A stretch of 64,000 nt of DNA from NCBI GenBank assembly GCA_951406725.2, contig OX597819.1, positions 2,108,001 to 2,172,000 on the forward strand, read 5' to 3'. The stretch is from Octopus vulgaris. Its lineage: Eukaryota. Both the position numbers and the translations under genes were made by a program. Below are positions 9,085-60,057 of the stretch, piece by piece; position 1 is the stretch's first letter, and every line of letters starts with the position of its first letter. The notes under the pieces are model-generated. The model ran no database searches. It was given only the letters and a program-made list of their open reading frames with translations, and was not told where the DNA came from.

Positions 9085-11660
9085 TAGAGAGACATAAGAG
9101 GATCAACAAACATTACAGAAGCCCCTTCACGAGAAGACTTAAACTCCTTCTGGGGGAAATTTGTCTGGAGTGAAAAGAAGATGCTCTGTGACTGGAAGAA
9201 ATCCGAAAAAGTTATTGCTCCTGCGTTACATCAAAGACATACAACATTGATGGTGAAAGTTTTGCAACTGTGATCCAGAAACTCCAGAAAAGAAAAGCAC
9301 CTAGATGAGACTTGATTGTTGGATATTGGTACAAGAAGCTAACTTTCTACCTACCATATCTTATCAATCTGTACCAGCAGGCTTTTATTGGAAACAGTAG
9401 CATACCACACTGGCTAGCTTTGGCAGAGAAGAAAATTGATACCCAAATGCAGAACCACCCACATGGGAAAAACTACCGGACAATTGCATGCCAGAACTTA
9501 ATGTATAATATATATACAGCATGTTTAAACCTCTTCCTCCAAGATCATTGTGAAACCAATAACATTATCCCAACAGAACAAGCAGCTGGGAAGAAGGGAG
9601 TATGGGGATGTGCCGTGCAATTGTTAATCAGCAAAACTGTGATGTCAGAGGTGCGAGAGCATAGGAGGAACCTAGTTTCAATGTGGCTAGACTACGAGAA
9701 AACCTTTTACTCTTCCCCATACATGGATGCTAGAAGCCCTTCAACTTGCTAACATTCCAGTGGGAATAGTCAAAGCCGTAGCTGACCTGACTTTATCGTG
9801 GGTCACTATCTTGAAATTAAACACAAAGAGTGAATGTATTATCACCGATAGAATAAAGTATCGCAAAGGCATATTCCAAGGAGACAGCCTCTCTGTAATG
9901 TTGTTTATACTTTCTGTAAACTCCTTGTCATTCTCGTTAAGGAAGTCTGAAGGATATCTCACTGGTTCACAAGGAAACAGAAATACCAAAATTACACACT
10001 GTTTCTTTGTGGATGATTTAAAACTTTATGCAAAGAATATGCATGAGATGAAAATGAGCCTTGACCTATTTACAACATTTTCAAAGGATGTAGGTTGGAG
10101 TTTGGTTAAGATAAATGTTGTTATATGGTTGTGAAAAGGGGGAAAACTATAAACCAGACTAGTAACATCTCCATCAATGATTTGACTGTTTCCCCTGTAT
10201 CTAGGGGTGTAAGAAAACACGTCACTAAAGAATATTAGAGCCGAATAAAGAAAGTTTGGACCTCAGAACTCTCTGCATCCAATAATAGAGTGGCGCACAA
10301 TGTATTTTCAGTACCAGTACTCATACCAATATTTGGGCTGCTTGATTGGACGCTTGATGAGATACAAGCTATTGATTCGAAAAGCCGAAAAATACTAACA
10401 AGCACAAACAAATTCCACATAAACAGTGACGTAGACCGCTTCTATCTAAAACGCGGCAGAGGTTTAACATCGATCCAAAATGCTTTTGAATGTCGATCAT
10501 ATCTCTTCAACAACATCTTTTAACCACCAAGTGTCCAAGTGCATCCCTTGATCAAGTTTGCATAAATGAGGCTGATAGCATCATTAGATTGGAAGGCAGC
10601 TCCTTGAGCAACACTGCCTGATAATCTAGAATAATGCTCAAAGAAGTCGCACGACTCTACCGCAATATATCATCAGATGAAAGGCTGATTCTATATGAGC
10701 AGAAGACTATGCATGGATATGTTAGTAGAAAGCTACGTGAAGATAGTAACATCAATCCTCTAAGCAGTCTACCATGGACTAATAGCCGGATTACTACCTT
10801 CCACTTTGAAGGTTTTACGTTTGCGATCCAGGATGCAGACTTTATGGAGTTCACACTGAAGATATCACCTACATCATGAGCAGTTGTCCGAAAATATCAC
10901 CACGGCATTATCTACCGATGAGACATCACACTGTAGCTAGGACACTCTATAATGAAATCCGTCGGATATATAATCCCGAGAACAAAAAATAAAAACCCTC
11001 GATATGGTAGGAGCCATAGCCACTCATAATAAAAAGGAACACTGGTGGAATGTAACAGTGAAGACCGCAATAAAAAGTAAGGACAACAGACCTGATATAA
11101 TGATTTGGGATAGAGAAGAGAAACTGTGTACAGTTGTGGAAATTAGCTGCCCAGAGGATATTAAAGCTGAAGATCAGTAAAAAAGAGAACAACTATGCTG
11201 AACTATTAAGAAATTTCCAGTTTCTCCATCCAGATTACAAGTTCAGGTTTATGCTTGTAATTGTTGGCGCCCTAGGATATGTAACACACTACCTAAATAC
11301 CAATCTTAAGAAATTAGGCTTCTCAAAAAGCCAGAAAGGAGAAAGCTAATTCGAATACTACAGATCCAATCTATCACTGGAACTGTAAAAATGACGAAAA
11401 CTTTCCAGAAGTTTATCATTTAAATATGTGTTATGCAACTATAGACCTGAGAATACATACATAAAGCATATAAATCTGCACATACATACATACATACACA
11501 CACACACATACATACACACACACACACACATACACATACAAACAAACAAAAATACCCTGTTGTTGATATTGAAATTCTAATGAAGGAGCCTTGGATCTAG
11601 GTTAGAAACCGGTTCTTTCTCTATTCGCAAGAAATCTTCAAATAAAACTGAATAATGGCA
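9085..11660 (+). mobile_element. Decayed 5'-truncated R4-clade LINE (RT plus restriction-like endonuclease)
   Basis: NYRTIACQNLMY, EQAAGKKG, WLDYEK, GIFQGDSLS, FFVDDLKLY, then RPDI and VEISCP, KENNY, VIVGALG; many frameshifts; ends at (CATA)n. Confidence 0.85.
11571..11619 (+). ncRNA. Degenerate HHR-like motif downstream of the R4-like ORF
   Basis: GAAAUU CUAAUGAA GG-AGCCUUG GAU CUAGGUU-A GAAACCGGUU CUUUC; palindromic stem III ACCGGU; core deviates from consensus. Confidence 0.35.
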
Positions 11661-29983: not shown

Positions 29984-30195
29984 GAAAGTTTACGAAAATA
30001 AACAAAAGATGAAGGCAGGTGGAGTATAAACAAGCAAATGTATTAGTATGGCGCTCAGGAATAGAAAAAGTCTTTTACGTTTCGAGCCTACGCTCTTCGA
30101 CAGAAAGATACACAGAAAAAAACAAGGAGAGAAACAAGAGAAAAAAAGGAGAGAAAAAAATGCGTGTAGGAGCTAACGATCTATCATGGCGTCCT
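29981..30195 (-). mobile_element. Solo pseudo-LTR of the Penelope-like family at 41806-43378
   Basis: Highly similar to 41806-42005; abuts (TA)n. Confidence 0.85.
30071..30108 (-). ncRNA. Minimal HHR variant in PLE pLTR
   Basis: UCUUU CUGUCGAA GAGC-GUAG-GCUC GAAAC GUA AAAGA: stems I and II perfect, palindromic ACGU stem III, atypical core. Confidence 0.65.
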
Positions 30196-30239
30196 ACAAT
30201 ATATACATATACTGGAAGTGGATGCGTGGCATTCAATCA

Positions 30240-30609: not shown

Positions 30610-30649
30610 GATAGCTAGACAGACAGTCAGATAGATAGACAGACAAATT

Positions 30650-30708
<59 letters not shown>

Positions 30709-30718
30709 TGATAGATAT

Positions 30719-30771
<53 letters not shown>

Positions 30772-30804
30772 CAGACAGATAGACATACAGATAGATAGAT
30801 AGAT
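30610..30804. repeat. (GATA)n array, 3' flank of Tx1
   Basis: Directly visible. Confidence 0.95.
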
Positions 30805-31129
30805 AACTTTTTATTGTAGCCACACAGGGCTAAACACAGAATAAAAATGGACGAAATACAATGTAGAATTTTTCTTTTCGAGGTGGGATGGGTGGGGCAA
30901 GAAAAAAAAAATAAATAAATAAAATAAAATAAAAAATAAAAAAAACGTTTGATCAATAGGGATCTGTGGGTTGTGTGGTGTATAAAAAAGCAATATATAT
31001 ATATATATAAGGTTCACAGTTTAGGTGTAGTCTTGGAAAGAAAAACCTACAAAAAAGACCAAGGTCACCTCAGGCAATTCGAAAAAGAACACATGAGTAA
31101 GTCGCCTTACTTCTCGTTGTCTCTTTTGG

Positions 31130-34100
31130 TTACAGATTTATGCTTAAAATAGTGTCGTCTTTCATACTGACCATTTTTGCCACTTTTACCCACTTTTTAT
31201 TAAAACATTCGTTCGACAAAGCCTTCCTCTCTATTCTCATCCTCCTTTTCAAGTGGTACTTGAAAAAGTTGACGAGAGACTGACCAGAGAGGAAGGTGTT
31301 TGTTTGCAGTCCTTTCAAACGCGTCCACCACACACATTCTTTCGCCATAGCCATCAGCGTAACGAAATCCGTTTTCCCTTCCCGTTTAAAGGAAGGTGGT
31401 GGAACAATATTCACAATAGACTCGGCCGATAGGCGAGCCTGACCTACACGTGACAACAGCTGTTCGACGAAGGACCACAGCTCTGAAATATCTGGACACT
31501 GCACGAGTGCGTGCAGAACGGTTTCGTCGCTCTGACCGCATCTCGGGCAGGTCGGTCCGGTGATGGTTTTCGAACCGTGTCTGTAGCTCTTCTCTCGAAC
31601 AGGTAGTGCGTCTCGATAGCACTGCCAAGCCAGGGATTTCTGGAAGTTATCCATAGGCCCCGGCCCGAACGTCGTCCTGAACAGGCGGGTTAGGAATTCC
31701 TCGTCGACGCCCAGGTTTGCCCCGAGTGTGTCGTCGGACCTCCCCTCCACTAGTCCTCTATAGAACGCTTTAGTCGTTTGTAAGTTGCACAAGTTTGACC
31801 CCAGTCGGCAGAGCTGCTGTAGAGCTTGGCGACACTCTCGGTGCCAATCGCCCAGTTTCGGTCTCTTTTTGATCCACGTTTGCAGTTCGGTCAGTGAGAC
31901 GAGCTGCGGGAAGTCGCGCCTCACAAACGGCGCCCACACCTGTTCACCGTCGTCGATGAATTTCCAGAGATGTCGCAGTCTCAGCGCATGCCTGCGCATC
32001 ATCAACCACGGCATGCCCAGTCCTCCATTCAACGGATGTTGACAGCAAATGGACTTCCTCACCATCGGAACGCCACCCTTCCACAGGAAGCGGAAGAGTA
32101 TGCGTTCCAGTTTGGTGATGGTGGCGTCGGGACAAGGTACGACGGTCAGGCGGTAATCGATGACGGATGCGATGTACGCGTTCGCCACCTCCGCCCGGCC
32201 TTTTAGAGACAGCTTTCTCTCGGCCCATGTTTGGCTGAGAGCGACCACTCTACTCGTGATCTCGTCCCAGTTCTTATCCATTTGGAGGTCCGGACTGAAC
32301 CAGACCCCGAGCAATTTAACCGGTCCGTCCGTCCAGCGTCCCACTACTGAGCCGCAGTCGGACGGCATGGGCTTGCTTCTCCAGGTGCCGAGTAGCAAAC
32401 CCACTGACTTTTCCGGGTTAATCTTTGCTCCCGTCACCGTTTCATATTTTCTTAGTGTCTCGCCGACCAGCTCGATGTGCTGGTAGCTCGACACTATGAC
32501 GGTGACATCGTCCGCATATGCCGACACGCTCGTCCCGCAACCCAGTTCCCGTGGGATGCCCCTCAGTGTCGCCAGCTTCCGCAGTAGCGGCTCGAGAGTC
32601 AATACATACAGAAGCGCCGACAGGGGACACCCCTGACGGACCGAACGCGTGATGTCAAACGGTTTAGACAGGTGACCGTTTACCCGAATCACCGATCGGA
32701 TGCCGCTATACAAGGCAGCGATCCAACCGCGGAAGACGGGACCGAAGCCAGCCGCCCTGAGGACGGCCGCCAAGTACCGATGGTCGACCCTATCGAAGGC
32801 TTTAGACTGATCCAAATTTATCAGCGCCCCACCCATGCCAGGATCCTTAACTACCCTGTCCACAATGTAGCGCATCAGATGGAGGTTGTCATGTATGGTT
32901 CTGCCCGGCACGGCGCATGTTTGCGCCCTGTCGACCAGTTTACCAATGACAAGCGCCAACCTCTCGGCTATTACTTTGGCCAAAATTTTCAAATCTGCGT
33001 TGAGCAGAGTGATGGGCCTGAAATTATCTATAAAATTCCCCTTGTTTGAGTCTTTCTTCAGCAACGTCACTGCACCTCGGCTCACGAAACCGGGGATTCT
33101 CCCGTTTTGTTGCCAGTTGCAGTAGACTGATGCCAAGAGTTCGCCAAACAAGTCTGGCATTCGACAATACAGCTCGTAGGGTAAACCATCCAATCCAGGC
33201 GACTTATCCCTCGCGCAGCCCGCCATCGCATCCCACACGTCAGCGGCTGTGATGGGACTTTCACAACACTCCGCCTCTCTTGCCGAGAGCCGCGGCAGGT
33301 CGGTCAGGTAGGCACTGAAATCCATCCCTCGTTCCGACCCACCACTCGCACCAAACAGTCGAGCAAAGTGCTGTTGAAAGGCCTCACACATCCTTTCGGG
33401 TTCGAGTAAACTGCATCCCTGTTGATCTATTAGAGACCGAATGGTTGATCTGTTGCCACGCTGCGCCTCCGCTACCCGGGCCTCTCGCGCAGCTTCAATC
33501 CCTTCGTTCCTTAAGGCACGCATTTTAGCTCTGACGACGCAACCTTCGTGCTTGGCGTTGAGGTGTTGGTCGAGGGCCATCCTCGCAGCTAGCACGTTGG
33601 TTGCGCTGCCAGTGGTAAGTGCCTCTTCTAGTTTCTTAACTAAGTCTCCCTCTACTCTATTTCGTTCTATCGCTAATTCCTTGCTAAACCTAATTGATTC
33701 CGATTTTATTGCCATTTTCAGGGCGTACCACCAGCGGTTGTTAACGACCGCTCCCGTCAGCGCCCTCTTAATTAACTCGCTAATCCGGTTCCTGTAAACC
33801 TGTCGCGCTAACAGCGACGTGTTCAGTTTCCAGTAACCGGGACCCTGCCTATGTGTTTTATCTAAGTCGAGCGTACACGTAACAAATTTGTGATCTGTGT
33901 AGCTGACTATTTTAAATTGTGGACATCCTACACTATCCCTATCCGCTGTCCTGCATAGAATTCTATCTAGATAAGATCTCGACGATCCGACGCGGTTTGT
34001 CCAAGTCCACGTTGGCACGTTCGGATGGTCGAGTCGGAACCTGTCAGACAAATGGAAACGTCTGAGCAGGTCTTTGAGGCTCTTACACCCCCTTCTATTC

Positions 34101-34570
34101 CTATCCCTTCCCACATAATCTAGATGCGTGTCCAAGGTAGCGTTCCAATCCCCTACTAACAGTAAAGGTCTAGACGTACCCAGGAAAACCTCTAGACGTC
34201 TGAAGAAATCCGCCCGACCCGTTAAGGACGGTGCATAAACTGCCATCAGACGGAATGCACACCCATTTCTGCCATCCACGTCCAAGACAACCAGCCTACC
34301 CTCCGGGTCTAGGAATATTGCTCTTACTTTTACCTTTAGACTCTTTCGAAAAAGCACCGCAGTACCTCCACCACCCATGTTCGGCAGACAGGGAGAAAAA
34401 TAAATGTCAAATTGATTGCCAAACATGGACTCGAGGGCCCGCGGCTTACTGAGTCTGGTTTCGCTGATAGCTACTATATCCACGTCCAGTGACTTGATGT
34501 CGTTTAGAAGGTAACCTTGCTTCCAAGCCGACGCCAAGCCACGCGCATTCACACAACCTAATTTAAGCAT
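31130..34570 (-). CDS. Tx1-type ORF2: APE endonuclease, reverse transcriptase, C-terminal Cys/His finger (~1146 aa from first ATG)
   Basis: NARGL, ISET, GDWN, SYLDRI, TDH (APE); KSPGLDGLP, NFRPITLLNAD, DQSKAFD, VRQGCPLS, YADD (RT); CPRC...ETVLHALVQC; uninterrupted. Confidence 0.96.
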   Translation of the reverse strand: MLKLGCVNARGLASAWKQGYLLNDIKSLDVDIVAISETRLSKPRALESMFGNQFDIYFSPCLPNMGGGGTAVLFRKSLKVKVRAIFLDPEGRLVVLDVDGRNGCAFRLMAVYAPSLTGRADFFRRLEVFLGTSRPLLLVGDWNATLDTHLDYVGRDRNRRGCKSLKDLLRRFHLSDRFRLDHPNVPTWTWTNRVGSSRSYLDRILCRTADRDSVGCPQFKIVSYTDHKFVTCTLDLDKTHRQGPGYWKLNTSLLARQVYRNRISELIKRALTGAVVNNRWWYALKMAIKSESIRFSKELAIERNRVEGDLVKKLEEALTTGSATNVLAARMALDQHLNAKHEGCVVRAKMRALRNEGIEAAREARVAEAQRGNRSTIRSLIDQQGCSLLEPERMCEAFQQHFARLFGASGGSERGMDFSAYLTDLPRLSAREAECCESPITAADVWDAMAGCARDKSPGLDGLPYELYCRMPDLFGELLASVYCNWQQNGRIPGFVSRGAVTLLKKDSNKGNFIDNFRPITLLNADLKILAKVIAERLALVIGKLVDRAQTCAVPGRTIHDNLHLMRYIVDRVVKDPGMGGALINLDQSKAFDRVDHRYLAAVLRAAGFGPVFRGWIAALYSGIRSVIRVNGHLSKPFDITRSVRQGCPLSALLYVLTLEPLLRKLATLRGIPRELGCGTSVSAYADDVTVIVSSYQHIELVGETLRKYETVTGAKINPEKSVGLLLGTWRSKPMPSDCGSVVGRWTDGPVKLLGVWFSPDLQMDKNWDEITSRVVALSQTWAERKLSLKGRAEVANAYIASVIDYRLTVVPCPDATITKLERILFRFLWKGGVPMVRKSICCQHPLNGGLGMPWLMMRRHALRLRHLWKFIDDGEQVWAPFVRRDFPQLVSLTELQTWIKKRPKLGDWHRECRQALQQLCRLGSNLCNLQTTKAFYRGLVEGRSDDTLGANLGVDEEFLTRLFRTTFGPGPMDNFQKSLAWQCYRDALPVREKSYRHGSKTITGPTCPRCGQSDETVLHALVQCPDISELWSFVEQLLSRVGQARLSAESIVNIVPPPSFKREGKTDFVTLMAMAKECVWWTRLKGLQTNTFLSGQSLVNFFKYHLKRRMRIERKALSNECFNKKWVKVAKMVSMKDDTILSINL

Positions 34571-34636
34571 ACTTGACAATTACGAAAATTGTGTTTTACA
34601 CACTATATTAGAAGAGACAAGAGGCAAGAAGTGAGG

Positions 34637-36510
34637 TCACTTACTCATTTTAAAAGTTTCATTTTTTTCTTCTTCTTTTGTATCGTTTTTGATGAGGTGT
34701 TTGTATAGTTTTTTTGACAGGTATCGTTGATACCCGCCTACCGCATTCGGAAATAATGTTTTCAGTATGTAGTGTTGTGCTTGTGTTATGTGTAAAATTC
34801 TGATGTGTTTCGGTGGTGTGGTGTGCGGATGATTGTTTGTCTTAAAATCATCTTCACAGACGACCATGTTAGATTTGATGTAGTCCATTAATTCTTTATT
34901 GTCTGTGTCTATTGCAGTTAGTTGTGTGTGTGGTTTTACGGGTTCATTACTTTTTTGATTGTCTAGGGGAATGTTGTCCTGAGTGAGATATCTCCCTGCT
35001 TTAATTCCTTGTTTGGTGGATTTTTTGGATCTTTTTCTTTTTACCCCCTGTGGCTATTTGCCATTCCGTCGAACTTTCGTCGTCCGAGGTATCAGTATGG
35101 GGTAGAGGAAAAAGAACAGGATCACTATGTATGCTTGTATAAATTGTTGATGTTTTGTGCGGTGTTTGTGTTGTTGTGGTGTTAGGGGTAGCATTTGTCT
35201 TCTCGTCAGTGTTTTCTGTCTTTTTAATTGTCGTCCTGGGTGTGGGTGTGGGTCGATTTTTTGAAGATTCAACAAGTTTAATTGGTTGTGACGTCAACGG
35301 TGATTGAGTTGGTACTGTTTTTCTTGGTGATGTTGTTGGGGTTTGTTGTTTTTCTTGGCGTTGTTCCATAATTGAGTGTGTTGGTGTTGGTGTTGGCAAC
35401 AAAGGGATTTTATTTGTTTTCTGAATTGTTCTGTCTTGTTTTTTCTGTACCAGATCGCACTTGGCAATCAAATGTTCGGGGCTGCCACATTTGTAGCATC
35501 TAGGCTTTTTGCCTTCTGCCATAACATATAGGCATTGCCCATTCTCCAAGTATATCTTGTCGGGTAGGCTCTCGATAGAAGCCCCCTCAATCTGGATGGT
35601 CACAACTACTGTTTTTCCACCCCAATTGTCGTTTAGGTACACGGCTGTTTCTAGAATATTGATCTTTTTCAAGTGGTAACAGATTGCCCCTGTTATCCAT
35701 TTGTTCGGCATATCGGGGGGTACATTTCTGATAGTAATTCTACTCACCCTCTGGTTTTTATAATAAGGGACCATGATGATTTCATCATTTCCCAGAGACT
35801 CAGTAGAGTGAGCTTTTGCCACTTCCTGGTTAGGGAAGCGGACCACTACTGTGTTAAACTGTGGACCCCAGTTTATATACTCTTTTTCTTTCATTATATT
35901 TTTTAAACATTTCTCCACATCAGTTTTTGTAATCTGTTCATTTGGTTTTTTGTTTTTTCTAATAATTTTATATACAATTGTCTTATTTTCAATTTCTTGT
36001 TTTATATGTTGAGGTGTATGCAGGACTAAATCTTGTCCACGGGTTGTAAAGAGAGCTCTTGTTTCTATGAGCTCTTCATTTGTGAATGTAAAAATCTCCT
36101 TTTTCTGGCGAAGAATATCTGCGAAATTTACTGTTGTTGACTTTTTTGTGTTGGCATCTTCACTATTAGATAGTTCATTTTTATTGTTGTTCTTGTTGTT
36201 GCTGTTGTTTTTGTCAATAGTTTTCGTTTCAGTTTTATTTTTATCATTTATGTTGGTCGTGGTAGCGGTGGTGGTGGTGGTGGAGGTGGTGGTGGTAGCA
36301 GTTGTTGTCTCGTGGTTGCTGTTGTTAGTGGTGGTGGTGGCGGTGGTGACAGGGCTGTTAACGCACGTGGTTGCAGCGTTCCTTTCACCGAATTTCACGT
36401 TGGCATTTTCCGTGCGAACGTTCTTTTTTTTTCTCTGTCGTTTCCAGACTAGGAAAATTTTGTTCCATAAAAGAACGCGACCAGCGTTCAACAATAAAAT
36501 TTCTAGACAT
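34637..36510 (-). CDS. Tx1-type ORF1 with CCHC knuckle; ~623 aa if two single-base homopolymer excesses are removed
   Basis: CYKCGSPEHLIAKC in ORF 35001-36593. The ATG at 36510 (MSRNF..MEQNFPSL) joins it via the A9 run at 36424-36432; ORF 34637-34888 joins via the G5 run at 35044-35048. Confidence 0.8.
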
Positions 36511-36710
36511 TTTCTAATGTCGAGAAGAAAATAATAGAAATGAAATGGGGTCGAAACTGCCCCTAGGGGCGAATTCCTCCCTTGGAAAAGCACTCAAATG
36601 AAAGTTGGTTGCCTTACACACCTTATTTGCAAAAATCTACACAAAAATTGGCCTATAAATAGTCAAAATAAATGATTACCTTCGGAGCTGAAACGACATC
36701 ACATCCGTCA

Positions 36711-36766
36711 ATAGATAGATAGATAGATAGATAGATAGTTAGATAGATAGTTAGTTAGATAGATAT

Positions 36767-36816
<50 letters not shown>

Positions 36817-36817
36817 T

Positions 36818-36859
<42 letters not shown>

Positions 36860-36880
36860 CAGACAGATAGATAGACAGAC

Positions 36881-36964
<84 letters not shown>

Positions 36965-36965
36965 T

Positions 36966-37015
<50 letters not shown>

Positions 37016-37032
37016 CAGACAGATAGACAGAC

Positions 37033-37122
<90 letters not shown>

Positions 37123-37141
37123 GCAGACAGATAGATAGACA
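36711..37141. repeat. (GATA)n array with GACA/GATT variants, 5' flank of Tx1
   Basis: Directly visible. Confidence 0.95.
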
Positions 37142-40943: not shown

Positions 40944-40985
<42 letters not shown>

Positions 40986-41032
40986 AATCTATCTATCTAT
41001 CTATCTATCTACCTACCTCTCTATCTATCTAT

Positions 41033-41085
41033 CCTAACTTGTCCCATCTGTGTGCAGCCCTGTGTGGCCAATAAAGAAACTTATC

Positions 41086-41086
<1 letters not shown>
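41033..41086 (+). mobile_element. ~50-bp Tx1-like 3' terminus inside (TATC)n
   Basis: tctgtgtgcagccctgtgtggccaataaa vs Tx1 end tctgtgtttagccctgtgtggctacaataaa; same orientation relative to TATC. Confidence 0.75.
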
Positions 41087-41156
<70 letters not shown>

Positions 41157-58500: not shown

Positions 58501-60057
58501 GGCTTTTCACCATTTCACCCGGTTCTTTGGGACGAGCGTGTGGAATCTCTAAAAGACTTCCTCGACGGCGGACCGCGACTCTCGGCACGGGAAGCGGAAT
58601 GTTGTGAAGGGCCGATTACACATTGCGGAGGTAGAGGAGGCGCTGGCTGAATACACCGGGGACAAGTCGCCGGGGCTGGATGGTCTGCCGTATGAATTTT
58701 ATCGTAGTATGCCAGTCTTGTTCGGACACTTGCTGGCCTGCGTCTACACGAACTGGCAGCAGAATGGGAGGGTTCCCAGCTCTGTGAGTCGGGGAGTGGT
58801 GATGCTGATCAGAAAAGACCAGAACAAGGGGTATCATATTAGTAATTCTAGGCCCATAACTCTACTCAATGTAGAGTTAAAGAATTTGGCCAAGGTGTTA
58901 GCAAAAATGTTGATGCGTGTGGTGGAGAAACTTGTAGGGAGGGCGCAGACATGCGCCGTCACAGGCAGGTCAATCCAGGACAATCTTCATCTCTTATGCT
59001 ACACTTTAGACAGGGTGGGTAAAGTAACCGGTAAAGGTGGGGCATTGGTCAATTTAGAGAAAACAAAACTTTCGATATGGTAGACACCAGTACCTGGCGG
59101 TAGTCCTTGAGGCGGCTGGGCTGGGCTCGGTTGGGTCAAGGCCATTTATGGCGGCATCGAATCCACAATCCAAATAAACGATTACCTGTCGGAGTCGTTT
59201 AAGATCAAGCGCTCGGTTGGCCAAGGGTGCCCCCTGTCTTTGTTTCTGTATATACTGTCTATTAAGCCATTGCTGCGAAGGTTAGAGTGTTTTAGGGGGC
59301 ATCCCCAATGAAATTAGATGTGGTAAGTCACCATCACTGTGTCCAATGTAGCTCAGCTACCTTGTGTAGAAGATGCAATCAAAGGATACGAGGCAGTGGC
59401 AAGGGCAAAAGTTAACAAGGACAAGTCCATCGGTTTGTGGTTTGGCACTTGGAGCGGCAAGCCGATAACCTTTAGTGCCGTGGGTTACTGGCCGGATGGC
59501 CCTGTTAAGTTGCTCGGAGTTTGGTTTGGACCAGATTCCCAGACGGAGAAGAATTTGAGTGAGGTGGCAGGCAGGATGGACCTGGTCTGGAAGGTCGCTG
59601 TCCCTGAAAGGGAGGGTGGAGGTGGTGCAGGTGTTTATTGCGTCTACTTTCACCTACTGCCTGACCGTTGCCCCTTGCCCTGATTCGTGGCTATGCAAGT
59701 TGGTACGACTTCTTTTCCGCTATTGTGGAAGGAAAACCCGCACTGAGGCTAAGGCATCTCTGGCTCTACCTGGATGGTGAACATGTGTGGAATTCGCTTG
59801 CGGGGGAATTCTTCCCACAACCTGCCTCCTTGGAGGCAGGTTTGCACCCGATTTGATTAAAATACAGAATACGACTGAATGGCAAAAGAAATGCCGAAAG
59901 GCACTCGTGCTAATCCACAGGGCGGGCAAGGCCAGCAGTGGGAATACCACCTCTGTATTTTATAAAGGGATGGTAGAGTATAAGAGTGATGATGTCCTAG
60001 GAGAGGCTCTGGGGTTCGATGAGAACCAGCTAGCCAACTTGTTTCCTCAGGTCGGGG
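55580..60057 (+). mobile_element. Decayed Tx1-clade element related to 30805-36710, 3'-truncated
   Basis: ORF1 pieces (EDFPAM, SFSAAV, CFKCEEKGHVCSDC); ORF2 from 57367 (MEIKLGCINVRGL, FLDPEGRLVVLDV, KSPGLDGLPYE, GPVKLLGVWF), colinear with the intact ORF2 but frameshifted. Confidence 0.9.

What the first reader, a model, noticed from the sequence alone, without database searches (positions are those of the whole stretch)
30805..36710. Young, apparently complete Tx1 element inserted in (GATA)n
The 3.4-kb ORF2 is uninterrupted with catalytic motifs intact, both UTRs are present, there is no real poly(A) tail, and GATA arrays of the same orientation flank it. A second 3' terminus at 41033 sits in the same repeat in the same relative orientation. 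Candidate active (GATA)n-specific retrotransposon with a sequence-specific APE endonuclease.
Basis: partly seen in the sequence, partly recalled or inferred. Interest (0 to 1): 0.7.

Follow-up and report, generated by a model that had tools for sequence, protein, structure and literature searches.

The report
Octopus LINE targeting GATA repeats
This is one full-length copy of a young family of jumping genes in an octopus-like genome whose copies sit almost always inside GATA repeats in one orientation, likely because their enzyme cuts that repeat; relatives that target other short repeats are known, so this is a new landing site rather than a new kind of element.

Summary
Confirmed with one correction. 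30806-36710 (- strand) is a 5,905-bp, 5'-complete L1/Tx1-type LINE with an open 1,146-aa ORF2 and no poly(A). ORF1, however, is frameshifted twice at A-runs (real or assembly error). The family has 202 exact 3' ends. Of 100 examined, 76 are full-length, 95 have (TATC)n downstream and none has poly(A). Against it, 8 of 20 assessable truncated copies of this family do not. The 41033 end is a 47-nt stub of the sister family (7,690 ends, 82% ORF2 identity). About 10,450 ends of the group exist, about 90% followed by TATC. One oddity: this family is 76% full-length, the sister about 10%, and its 5' end is a heritable repeat-like leader. Microsatellite-targeting Tx1 families are known (TC, TTC, TTCC, TTTC); I found no paper on a TATC target, and Repbase/Dfam could not be checked. 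This scan already noted GATA-targeting L1/Tx1 copies elsewhere in this genome (e1-9514738). Endonuclease specificity and present activity are untested.

The parts
30610..30805 (+). (GATA)n array, 3' flank of the element (reads (TATC)n on the element's strand)
   Evidence: period 4, 49 copies, 88% matches
30806..31129 (-). 3' UTR, 324 nt; ends in the tip shared by the whole group (motif 30819-30830, AATAAA 30810-30815), no poly(A)
   Evidence: tip motif + AATAAA occurs 10,455 times in the genome, 0 in the reversed control
31130..34570 (-). ORF2, 1,146 aa: APE endonuclease, reverse transcriptase, C-terminal CCHC; open
   Evidence: Exo_endo_phos 1e-16, RVT_1 5e-30, zf-RVT 27 bits, just under its 27.5 cut-off; human L1 ORF2p E 3e-58
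34637..36510 (-). ORF1 (about 623 aa in open copies; Thr/Asn-rich N-terminus, one zinc knuckle), broken here by two +1 lesions in A-runs
   Evidence: (zf-CCHC E 0.0016, under cut-off)
36511..36710 (-). 5' UTR, 200 nt, starting at the junction shared by the young clade
36711..37139 (+). (GATA)n array, 5' flank; its first 8-12 nt may belong to the element's own repeat-like leader (inferred from sister subfamilies)
   Evidence: 107 copies, 94%
41034..41081 (+). about 47-nt 5'-truncated 3' end of the sister family, inside the (TATC)n array 40944-41156

Best explanation
This is a full-length copy of a young L1/Tx1-type retrotransposon family whose copies sit in (GATA)n microsatellites in one orientation, likely inserted there by target-primed reverse transcription after its endonuclease nicks the GATA strand. 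Shown: anatomy, copy number, youth, repeat on both sides of full-length and truncated copies, fixed 3' junction, no poly(A). Inferred steps: (1) ORF2p binds its RNA at the conserved 3' tip; (2) the endonuclease nicks the GATA strand; (3) the RNA, cut 10-30 nt past AAUAAA and so ending in a few UAUC units before any poly(A), pairs with the nicked strand and reverse transcription starts there, which would explain the missing poly(A) and the in-phase junction; (4) the cDNA joins the other strand inside the same array, without needing microhomology when truncated. This copy could supply ORF2p but, as assembled, not ORF1p.
For: 3' side: 95 of 100 ends TATC-rich, 97 of 100 start with TATCT/TATTT within 3 nt, no poly(A); genome-wide 9,449 TATC matches for 10,455 ends, a few counted twice. 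5' side: 70 of 76 full-length copies; sister family truncated copies 18 of 21 within 1.5 kb, none in reverse orientation, plus 5 of 6 longer ones; 31 different truncation points abut TATC directly; background 0.5%. L180 lies in (TA)n on both sides and L162 has (TA)n downstream, with no TATC tail, so the repeat is target, not tail. Catalytic residues align with human L1 ORF2p; dN/dS against the sister 0.15, 0.13 in the endonuclease. Precedent: Kibi (TC)n, Koshi (TTC)n, crocodilian (TTCC)n/(TTTC)n Tx1 families (PMC4494074, passages); endonuclease swap changes the target and RNA-target pairing can set the start in SART1/TRAS1 (PMC7265360, passages).
Against: 8 of 20 assessable truncated copies of this family have no TATC upstream, and for six of them 6-9 kb more sequence held no missing 5' part; later deletion is possible but not shown. 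Six full-length copies scored low: one is an alignment offset, the rest have (TA)n, (TC)n, (TTTA)n or unique DNA upstream. No empty site was seen, so pre-existing arrays are inferred. No RNA end was seen. The 3' tip does not fold better than shuffles (z -0.07 and 0.54). Samples are the first-listed matches, not random: 100 of 202 for this family, and the first 30 of 7,690 (first 3.4 Mb of C1) for the sister.
Confidence: 0.75

Rival explanations
1. Targeting is real but comes mainly from RNA-DNA pairing: a loosely specific endonuclease nicks many sites, and only those where the RNA's UAUC end can pair are productive.
For: No poly(A) and a fixed in-phase junction; off-target copies in (TA)n keep the TAT match at the 3' junction (L162, L180); internal RNA-target pairing is described for SART1 (PMC7265360, passages). 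Earlier scan notes suggest target switching with little endonuclease change in other Tx1 families of this genome (not checked by me).
Against: In SART1/TRAS1 the endonuclease swap moves the target (PMC7265360); the endonuclease is conserved between two families with the same target (82.5% identity, dN/dS 0.13), though that is also expected of any working enzyme.
Confidence: 0.25
2. The element does not target GATA but seeds it: TATC is a tail (and head) of the element, as in microsatellite-tailed LINEs.
For: The 5' leader is repeat-like and inherited; 8 truncated copies have TATC only at the 3' side; RTE LINEs carry microsatellite 3' ends (PMC9115989, passage).
Against: Truncated copies broken at 31 different points abut TATC at the 5' side; copies in (TA)n carry no TATC tail; GATA arrays without any tip exist in the window (only two tips for six or more arrays).
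Confidence: 0.07
3. This very copy is an intact, active source element and its two ORF1 frameshifts are homopolymer errors of the assembly.
For: 51 of 63 frame lesions in ORF1 of young copies lie in homopolymer runs; ORF2 is open; nearest copy differs by 0.31%; contigs of public runs lack both extra bases.
Against: Those contigs pool all copies, so they say nothing about this locus; reverse-transcriptase or replication slippage also hits A-runs; the copy is a tip, not a hub, in the tree (terminal branch 0.0014).
Confidence: 0.2
4. Copies insert at random and are merely retained or spread by conversion in GATA-rich regions.
For: GATA arrays are common here; passive accumulation is proposed for Drosophila Waldo-A/B (PMC3812793, passage).
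Against: Strict orientation (0 of 21 reversed), base-exact 3' junction, and the youngest copies are as repeat-bound as older ones.
Confidence: 0.02

Closest known systems
Kibi (TC)n, Koshi (TTC)n and crocodilian Tx1 families on (TTCC)n/(TTTC)n (PMC4494074, passages; PMC3812793, passages)
   Same: APE-type two-ORF LINE of the Tx1 group, inserted in a microsatellite; as written, those targets are pyrimidine-rich, like TATC on this element's strand.
   Different: Target (TATC)n is not in either list; host is a cephalopod-like genome; the group has about 10,450 ends. I had no sequences of Kibi or Koshi, so direct kinship is untested.
Keno (U2 snRNA-targeting Tx1; PMC4494074) and Mutsu (5S-targeting; name and target recalled)
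   Same: U2-flanked (L247, L249, L255) and 5S-flanked (L253) metagenome elements fall in the same large clade as this RT.
   Different: About 30% identity; different target; the octopus group has its own long branch with an Argonauta hians protein (68% RT identity).
SART1/TRAS1, Waldo, Mino, Dong (repeat-specific LINEs of other clades; PMC7265360, PMC3812793, passages)
   Same: Insertion in short tandem repeats, head-to-tail arrays, RNA-target pairing at priming.
   Different: Other clades and repeats; SART1 keeps a poly(A) at the junction, this group does not.
L1-Tx1 families of the Octopus vulgaris repeat annotation (PMC13282606, part 1 of 3 read plus term search)
   Same: 13 recently active L1-Tx1 families, 421 near-full-length insertions are counted; this family is probably among them if the host is that species (inference).
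   Different: The text has no 'target' or 'GATA'; its library and supplements were not seen.

Membership tests
APE-type non-LTR retrotransposon (L1/Tx1 group) | ORF2 with N-terminal APE endonuclease, RT and C-terminal CCHC | tested here: met
APE-type non-LTR retrotransposon (L1/Tx1 group) | Separate ORF1 upstream of ORF2 | tested here: met
   Open at 622-629 aa in 10 of 35 young copies; broken in this copy
APE-type non-LTR retrotransposon (L1/Tx1 group) | Fixed 3' end, variable 5' truncation, no LTRs | tested here: met
Tx1 clade | RT phylogeny with known Tx1 families, apart from L1 | tested here: inconclusive
   Quick IQ-TREE (careful search unfinished), 86 rows: groups with U2- and 5S-flanked elements and a protein named 'Transposon TX1', apart from plant L1, SH-aLRT 93; no named Tx1L, Kibi, Koshi or vertebrate L1 was in the tree
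Tx1 clade | Zinc knuckle in ORF1 (feature recalled) | tested here: inconclusive
   zf-CCHC E 0.0016, 18.8 bits against a cut-off of 20.8
Target-specific LINE | One sequence type in more than 20% of flanks (criterion of PMC4494074) | tested here: met
   95 of 100 3' flanks, 70 of 76 and 23 of 27 5' flanks
Target-specific LINE | Sequence-specific nicking by the endonuclease | not testable with these tools
   needs a biochemical assay
Target-specific LINE | Target-site duplication or empty site | not testable with these tools
   a duplication cannot be read inside a microsatellite; no second genome is held
Kibi/Koshi lineage | (TC)n or (TTC)n target | tested here: not met
   target is (TATC)n; only single copies touch (TC)n (L186, L338). 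Works like them, not filed as one.
Active retrotransposon | Insertion polymorphism or de novo insertion; transcript | not testable with these tools
   only assembled contigs of runs whose RNA status is a guess were offered

The most novel reading that the evidence does not exclude
Two sister LINE families with the same GATA target and 82% identical ORF2 differ about sevenfold in full-length insertion (76 of 100 against 3 of 30; 501 heads for 7,690 tails genome-wide) because one carries a target-mimicking 5' leader: its RNA starts with 8-12 nt that copy the repeat, so finished cDNA anneals to the target. The leader is shown to be heritable (CTCTGTCTAT-type leader in 12 of 25 heads of one subfamily, TGTC variant in 19 of 25, against 0 of 70 other copies), while the sister's head matches the target for only about 3 nt. 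This would be a natural experiment on what makes LINEs truncate.
Probability: 0.2. Interest if true: 0.62.

Novelty: new variant of a known kind. Interest (0 to 1): 0.4.

Why it matters
It adds a tetranucleotide target, (TATC)n, and a cephalopod host to the short list of microsatellite-specific APE LINEs, whose targeting mechanism the review read here calls not well understood (PMC3812793, passage). The ORF2 is naturally open, so the endonuclease can be assayed directly. About 10,450 ends make this group a notable shaper of GATA arrays in this genome, which matters for microsatellite markers there. The contrast in full-length fraction between two sisters offers a clean system for the open question of why LINEs truncate. 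It does not define a new class of element.

Tried and rejected
Microhomology as a requirement for 5' joining: rejected for truncated copies (mean 0.65 nt in 31 junctions against 0.61 simulated); this weakens the leader idea. A stable 3' stem-loop: no better than shuffles. Inherited variants in the 3' flank (read-through evidence): a few shared variants, not consistently on sister branches, inconclusive. Array-length asymmetry: none (medians 92 and 87 nt in 76 copies); slippage has probably erased any signal. Expression: no RNA holder listed on record; contigs of four runs cover 29-30 of 30 bins but cannot show ends or strand; the RNA 3' end remains unseen. Close relatives with flanks in metagenomes: best 42% identity, none with GATA flanks in the 23 of 80 loci printed. 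ORF1 fold family beyond Pfam: not obtained. Literature: eight answered searches gave no paper on a GATA/TATC-targeting LINE; the library lacks most subscription journals, Repbase Reports and Dfam, and the supplement of PMC4494074, which lists Tx1 targets, could not be read. ORF1 start at ATG 36468: rejected, most copies start at the ATG equivalent to 36510.
Full report
Setting. The window is G000:C6:2108001-2172000 in a 2.8-Gb genome of 227 contigs. The nearest named relative of ORF2 comes from Argonauta hians, 68% identical over the RT region, so the host is inferred to be an octopod.

Anatomy. The element spans 30806-36710 on the - strand (5,905 bp) between GATA arrays at 30610-30805 and 36711-37139. 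ORF2 runs from ATG 34570 for 1,146 aa, hits Exo_endo_phos and RVT_1 above cut-off and zf-RVT just below it, and aligns with human L1 ORF2p over residues 7-874 (E 3e-58) with the endonuclease and RT motifs in place. The UTRs are 200 and 324 nt. AATAAA lies 4 nt before the TATC flank and there is no poly(A). ORF1 starts at ATG 36510 but stops after 41 aa; two +1 lesions sit in A-runs near 36424-36434 and 35032-35040. So 'complete' holds for length and ORF2, not for ORF1. Whether the lesions are real is open: 51 of 63 ORF1 frame lesions in young copies are in homopolymers, and pooled contigs lack the extra bases.

Family and age. The 28-nt 3' end occurs 202 times. I fetched the 100 listed places, the window included. 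76 reach within 35 nt of the 5' end. 35 of these are at least 97.4% identical to the window copy, with median pairwise substitution 0.75% and minimum 0.05%; ORF2 is open in 25, ORF1 in 10, both in 7. With the calibration quoted in PMC13282606 (distance 0.09 = 25 My) the window copy parted from its nearest copy (0.31%) about 0.4 My ago; this is an inference. Runs under three organism codes and seven studies hold the sequence.

Target test. 3' side: 30 of 30 top hits and 95 of 100 listed ends run into (TATC)n, none into poly(A). 5' side: 30 of 30 top hits and 70 of 76 full-length copies. Because a full-length copy could carry its own 5' repeat, truncated copies are the real test. Of 24 non-full-length ends, 4 were set aside (internal duplication, N gap, cut by my fetch, chimera with the sister); of the other 20, 11 have clear TATC (two are one duplicated event), 1 a degenerate repeat and 8 none; further sequence for six of the 8 showed no missing part. 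The 41033 end belongs to a sister family with 7,690 exact ends, ORF2 82% and ORF1 39% identical. In its first 30 listed copies, 27 are truncated; 18 of 21 broken within 1.5 kb and 5 of 6 longer ones have TATC directly upstream, none of the 21 reversed, against 0.5% background. One copy lies in (TA)n on both sides without TATC (L180), so the repeat is not an obligatory tail. Genome-wide, 10,455 ends share the tip motif and 9,449 matches have TATC 3-8 nt after AATAAA, with a few double counts. Targeting is therefore established as a pattern; pre-existence of the arrays is inferred, since no empty site was seen.

Mechanism. Shown: fixed in-phase 3' junction without poly(A); variable 5' breakpoints joined to TATC with no more microhomology than chance (31 junctions, 0.65 against 0.61 nt); purifying selection on ORF2 (dN/dS 0.15). 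Inferred: nick on the GATA strand by the endonuclease, priming on UAUC units that read-through leaves between AAUAAA and the poly(A), and joining within the same array. Precedent comes from SART1/TRAS1 (PMC7265360, passages) and from R2, where target sequence added to the RNA 3' end raised efficiency and upstream target sequence is used to favour full-length insertion (PMC6530143, passages). The share of endonuclease versus RNA pairing cannot be told from sequence.

The oddity. This family is 76 of 100 full-length; the sister is 3 of 30 (Fisher p 7e-11; neither sample is random) and has 501 heads for 7,690 tails (the head pattern may miss subfamilies). Truncated sister copies are often 97-99% identical to a full-length one, so age alone does not explain it. 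In a tree built without the first 60 nt, copies with an imperfect repeat just upstream of the head cluster. Of 25 heads of that subfamily on 13 contigs, 19 carry the TGTC variant and 12 the longer CTCTGTC form, against 0 of 70 other full-length copies and 0 of 953 unit pairs in 3' flanks. So the element's 5' end extends 8-12 nt into what looks like flank. In the young clade that leader would match the target perfectly; sister heads match for about 3 nt and show ragged TC-rich junctions. That the leader causes the full-length excess is a hypothesis (0.2): truncated copies join without homology, and ORF1 or RT differences could do the same.

Placement. A quick tree of 86 RT rows (careful search unfinished) puts this element, its sister and the Argonauta protein in one clade, next to unnamed metagenome proteins, inside a group (SH-aLRT 93) with U2- and 5S-flanked elements (Rfam) and a protein named 'Transposon TX1', apart from plant L1. 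No named Tx1L, Kibi, Koshi or vertebrate L1 was in the tree, so Tx1 membership is likely, not proven.

What is known. Microsatellite-specific Tx1 families on (TC)n, (TTC)n, (TTCC)n and (TTTC)n are described (PMC4494074, passages; PMC3812793, passages). The O. vulgaris annotation counts 13 recently active L1-Tx1 families without target analysis (PMC13282606, part 1 of 3 and term search); the octopus brain LINE paper concerns RTE (PMC9115989, passages). Eight searches found no TATC target in print (other papers seen as listings only); Repbase, Dfam and the supplement of PMC4494074 were not available and may already list it.

Verdict. A real, young, GATA-specific LINE group: a new target variant of a known kind. 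Interest 0.4.

Noticed in passing
L095, L110, L227, L228, L231 (for example G000:C1:18500-34000): Head-to-tail chains of this family and its sisters, separated by as little as one or two TATC units, all in one orientation.
   Followed up: partly
genome-wide: At least four tip variants and two or three sister 5' heads (different 5' UTRs on near-identical 3' parts; L229 matches L227 only from about 1,540 on) point to 5' UTR/ORF1 replacement within the group.
   Followed up: partly
L125, L193, L203: Chimeras with a sister-family 5' part and this family's 3' part, suggesting template switching or recombination between the sisters.
   Followed up: no
ORF1 A-run near window 36424-36434: Length of this one A-run differs from the open frame in about 18 of 34 young copies: assembly error, slippage hotspot or both.
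   Followed up: partly
L143 (G000:C7:65809850-65816850): Copy with an internal inverted 207-nt duplication.
   Followed up: no
window 9691-10131 (+) and 58553-59080 (+): Short decayed reverse-transcriptase fragments of other LINEs (RVT_1 E 6e-8 and 1e-4).
   Followed up: no
window 30172-30197 and 5' flank of L161: The left flank shares a short motif with the site where an off-target sister copy (L161) sits, probably a dispersed repeat.
   Followed up: no
L247, L248, L249, L250, L255, L257 (U2) and L253 (5S): Metagenome contigs with Tx1-type elements beside or carrying U2 snRNA or 5S rRNA sequence; some hold a U2 match upstream of the ORFs.
   Followed up: partly
P0039-P0107: A large unnamed sister clade (45-52% RT identity, clusters of up to 732 members) from metagenome assemblies; host and target unknown.
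   Followed up: partly
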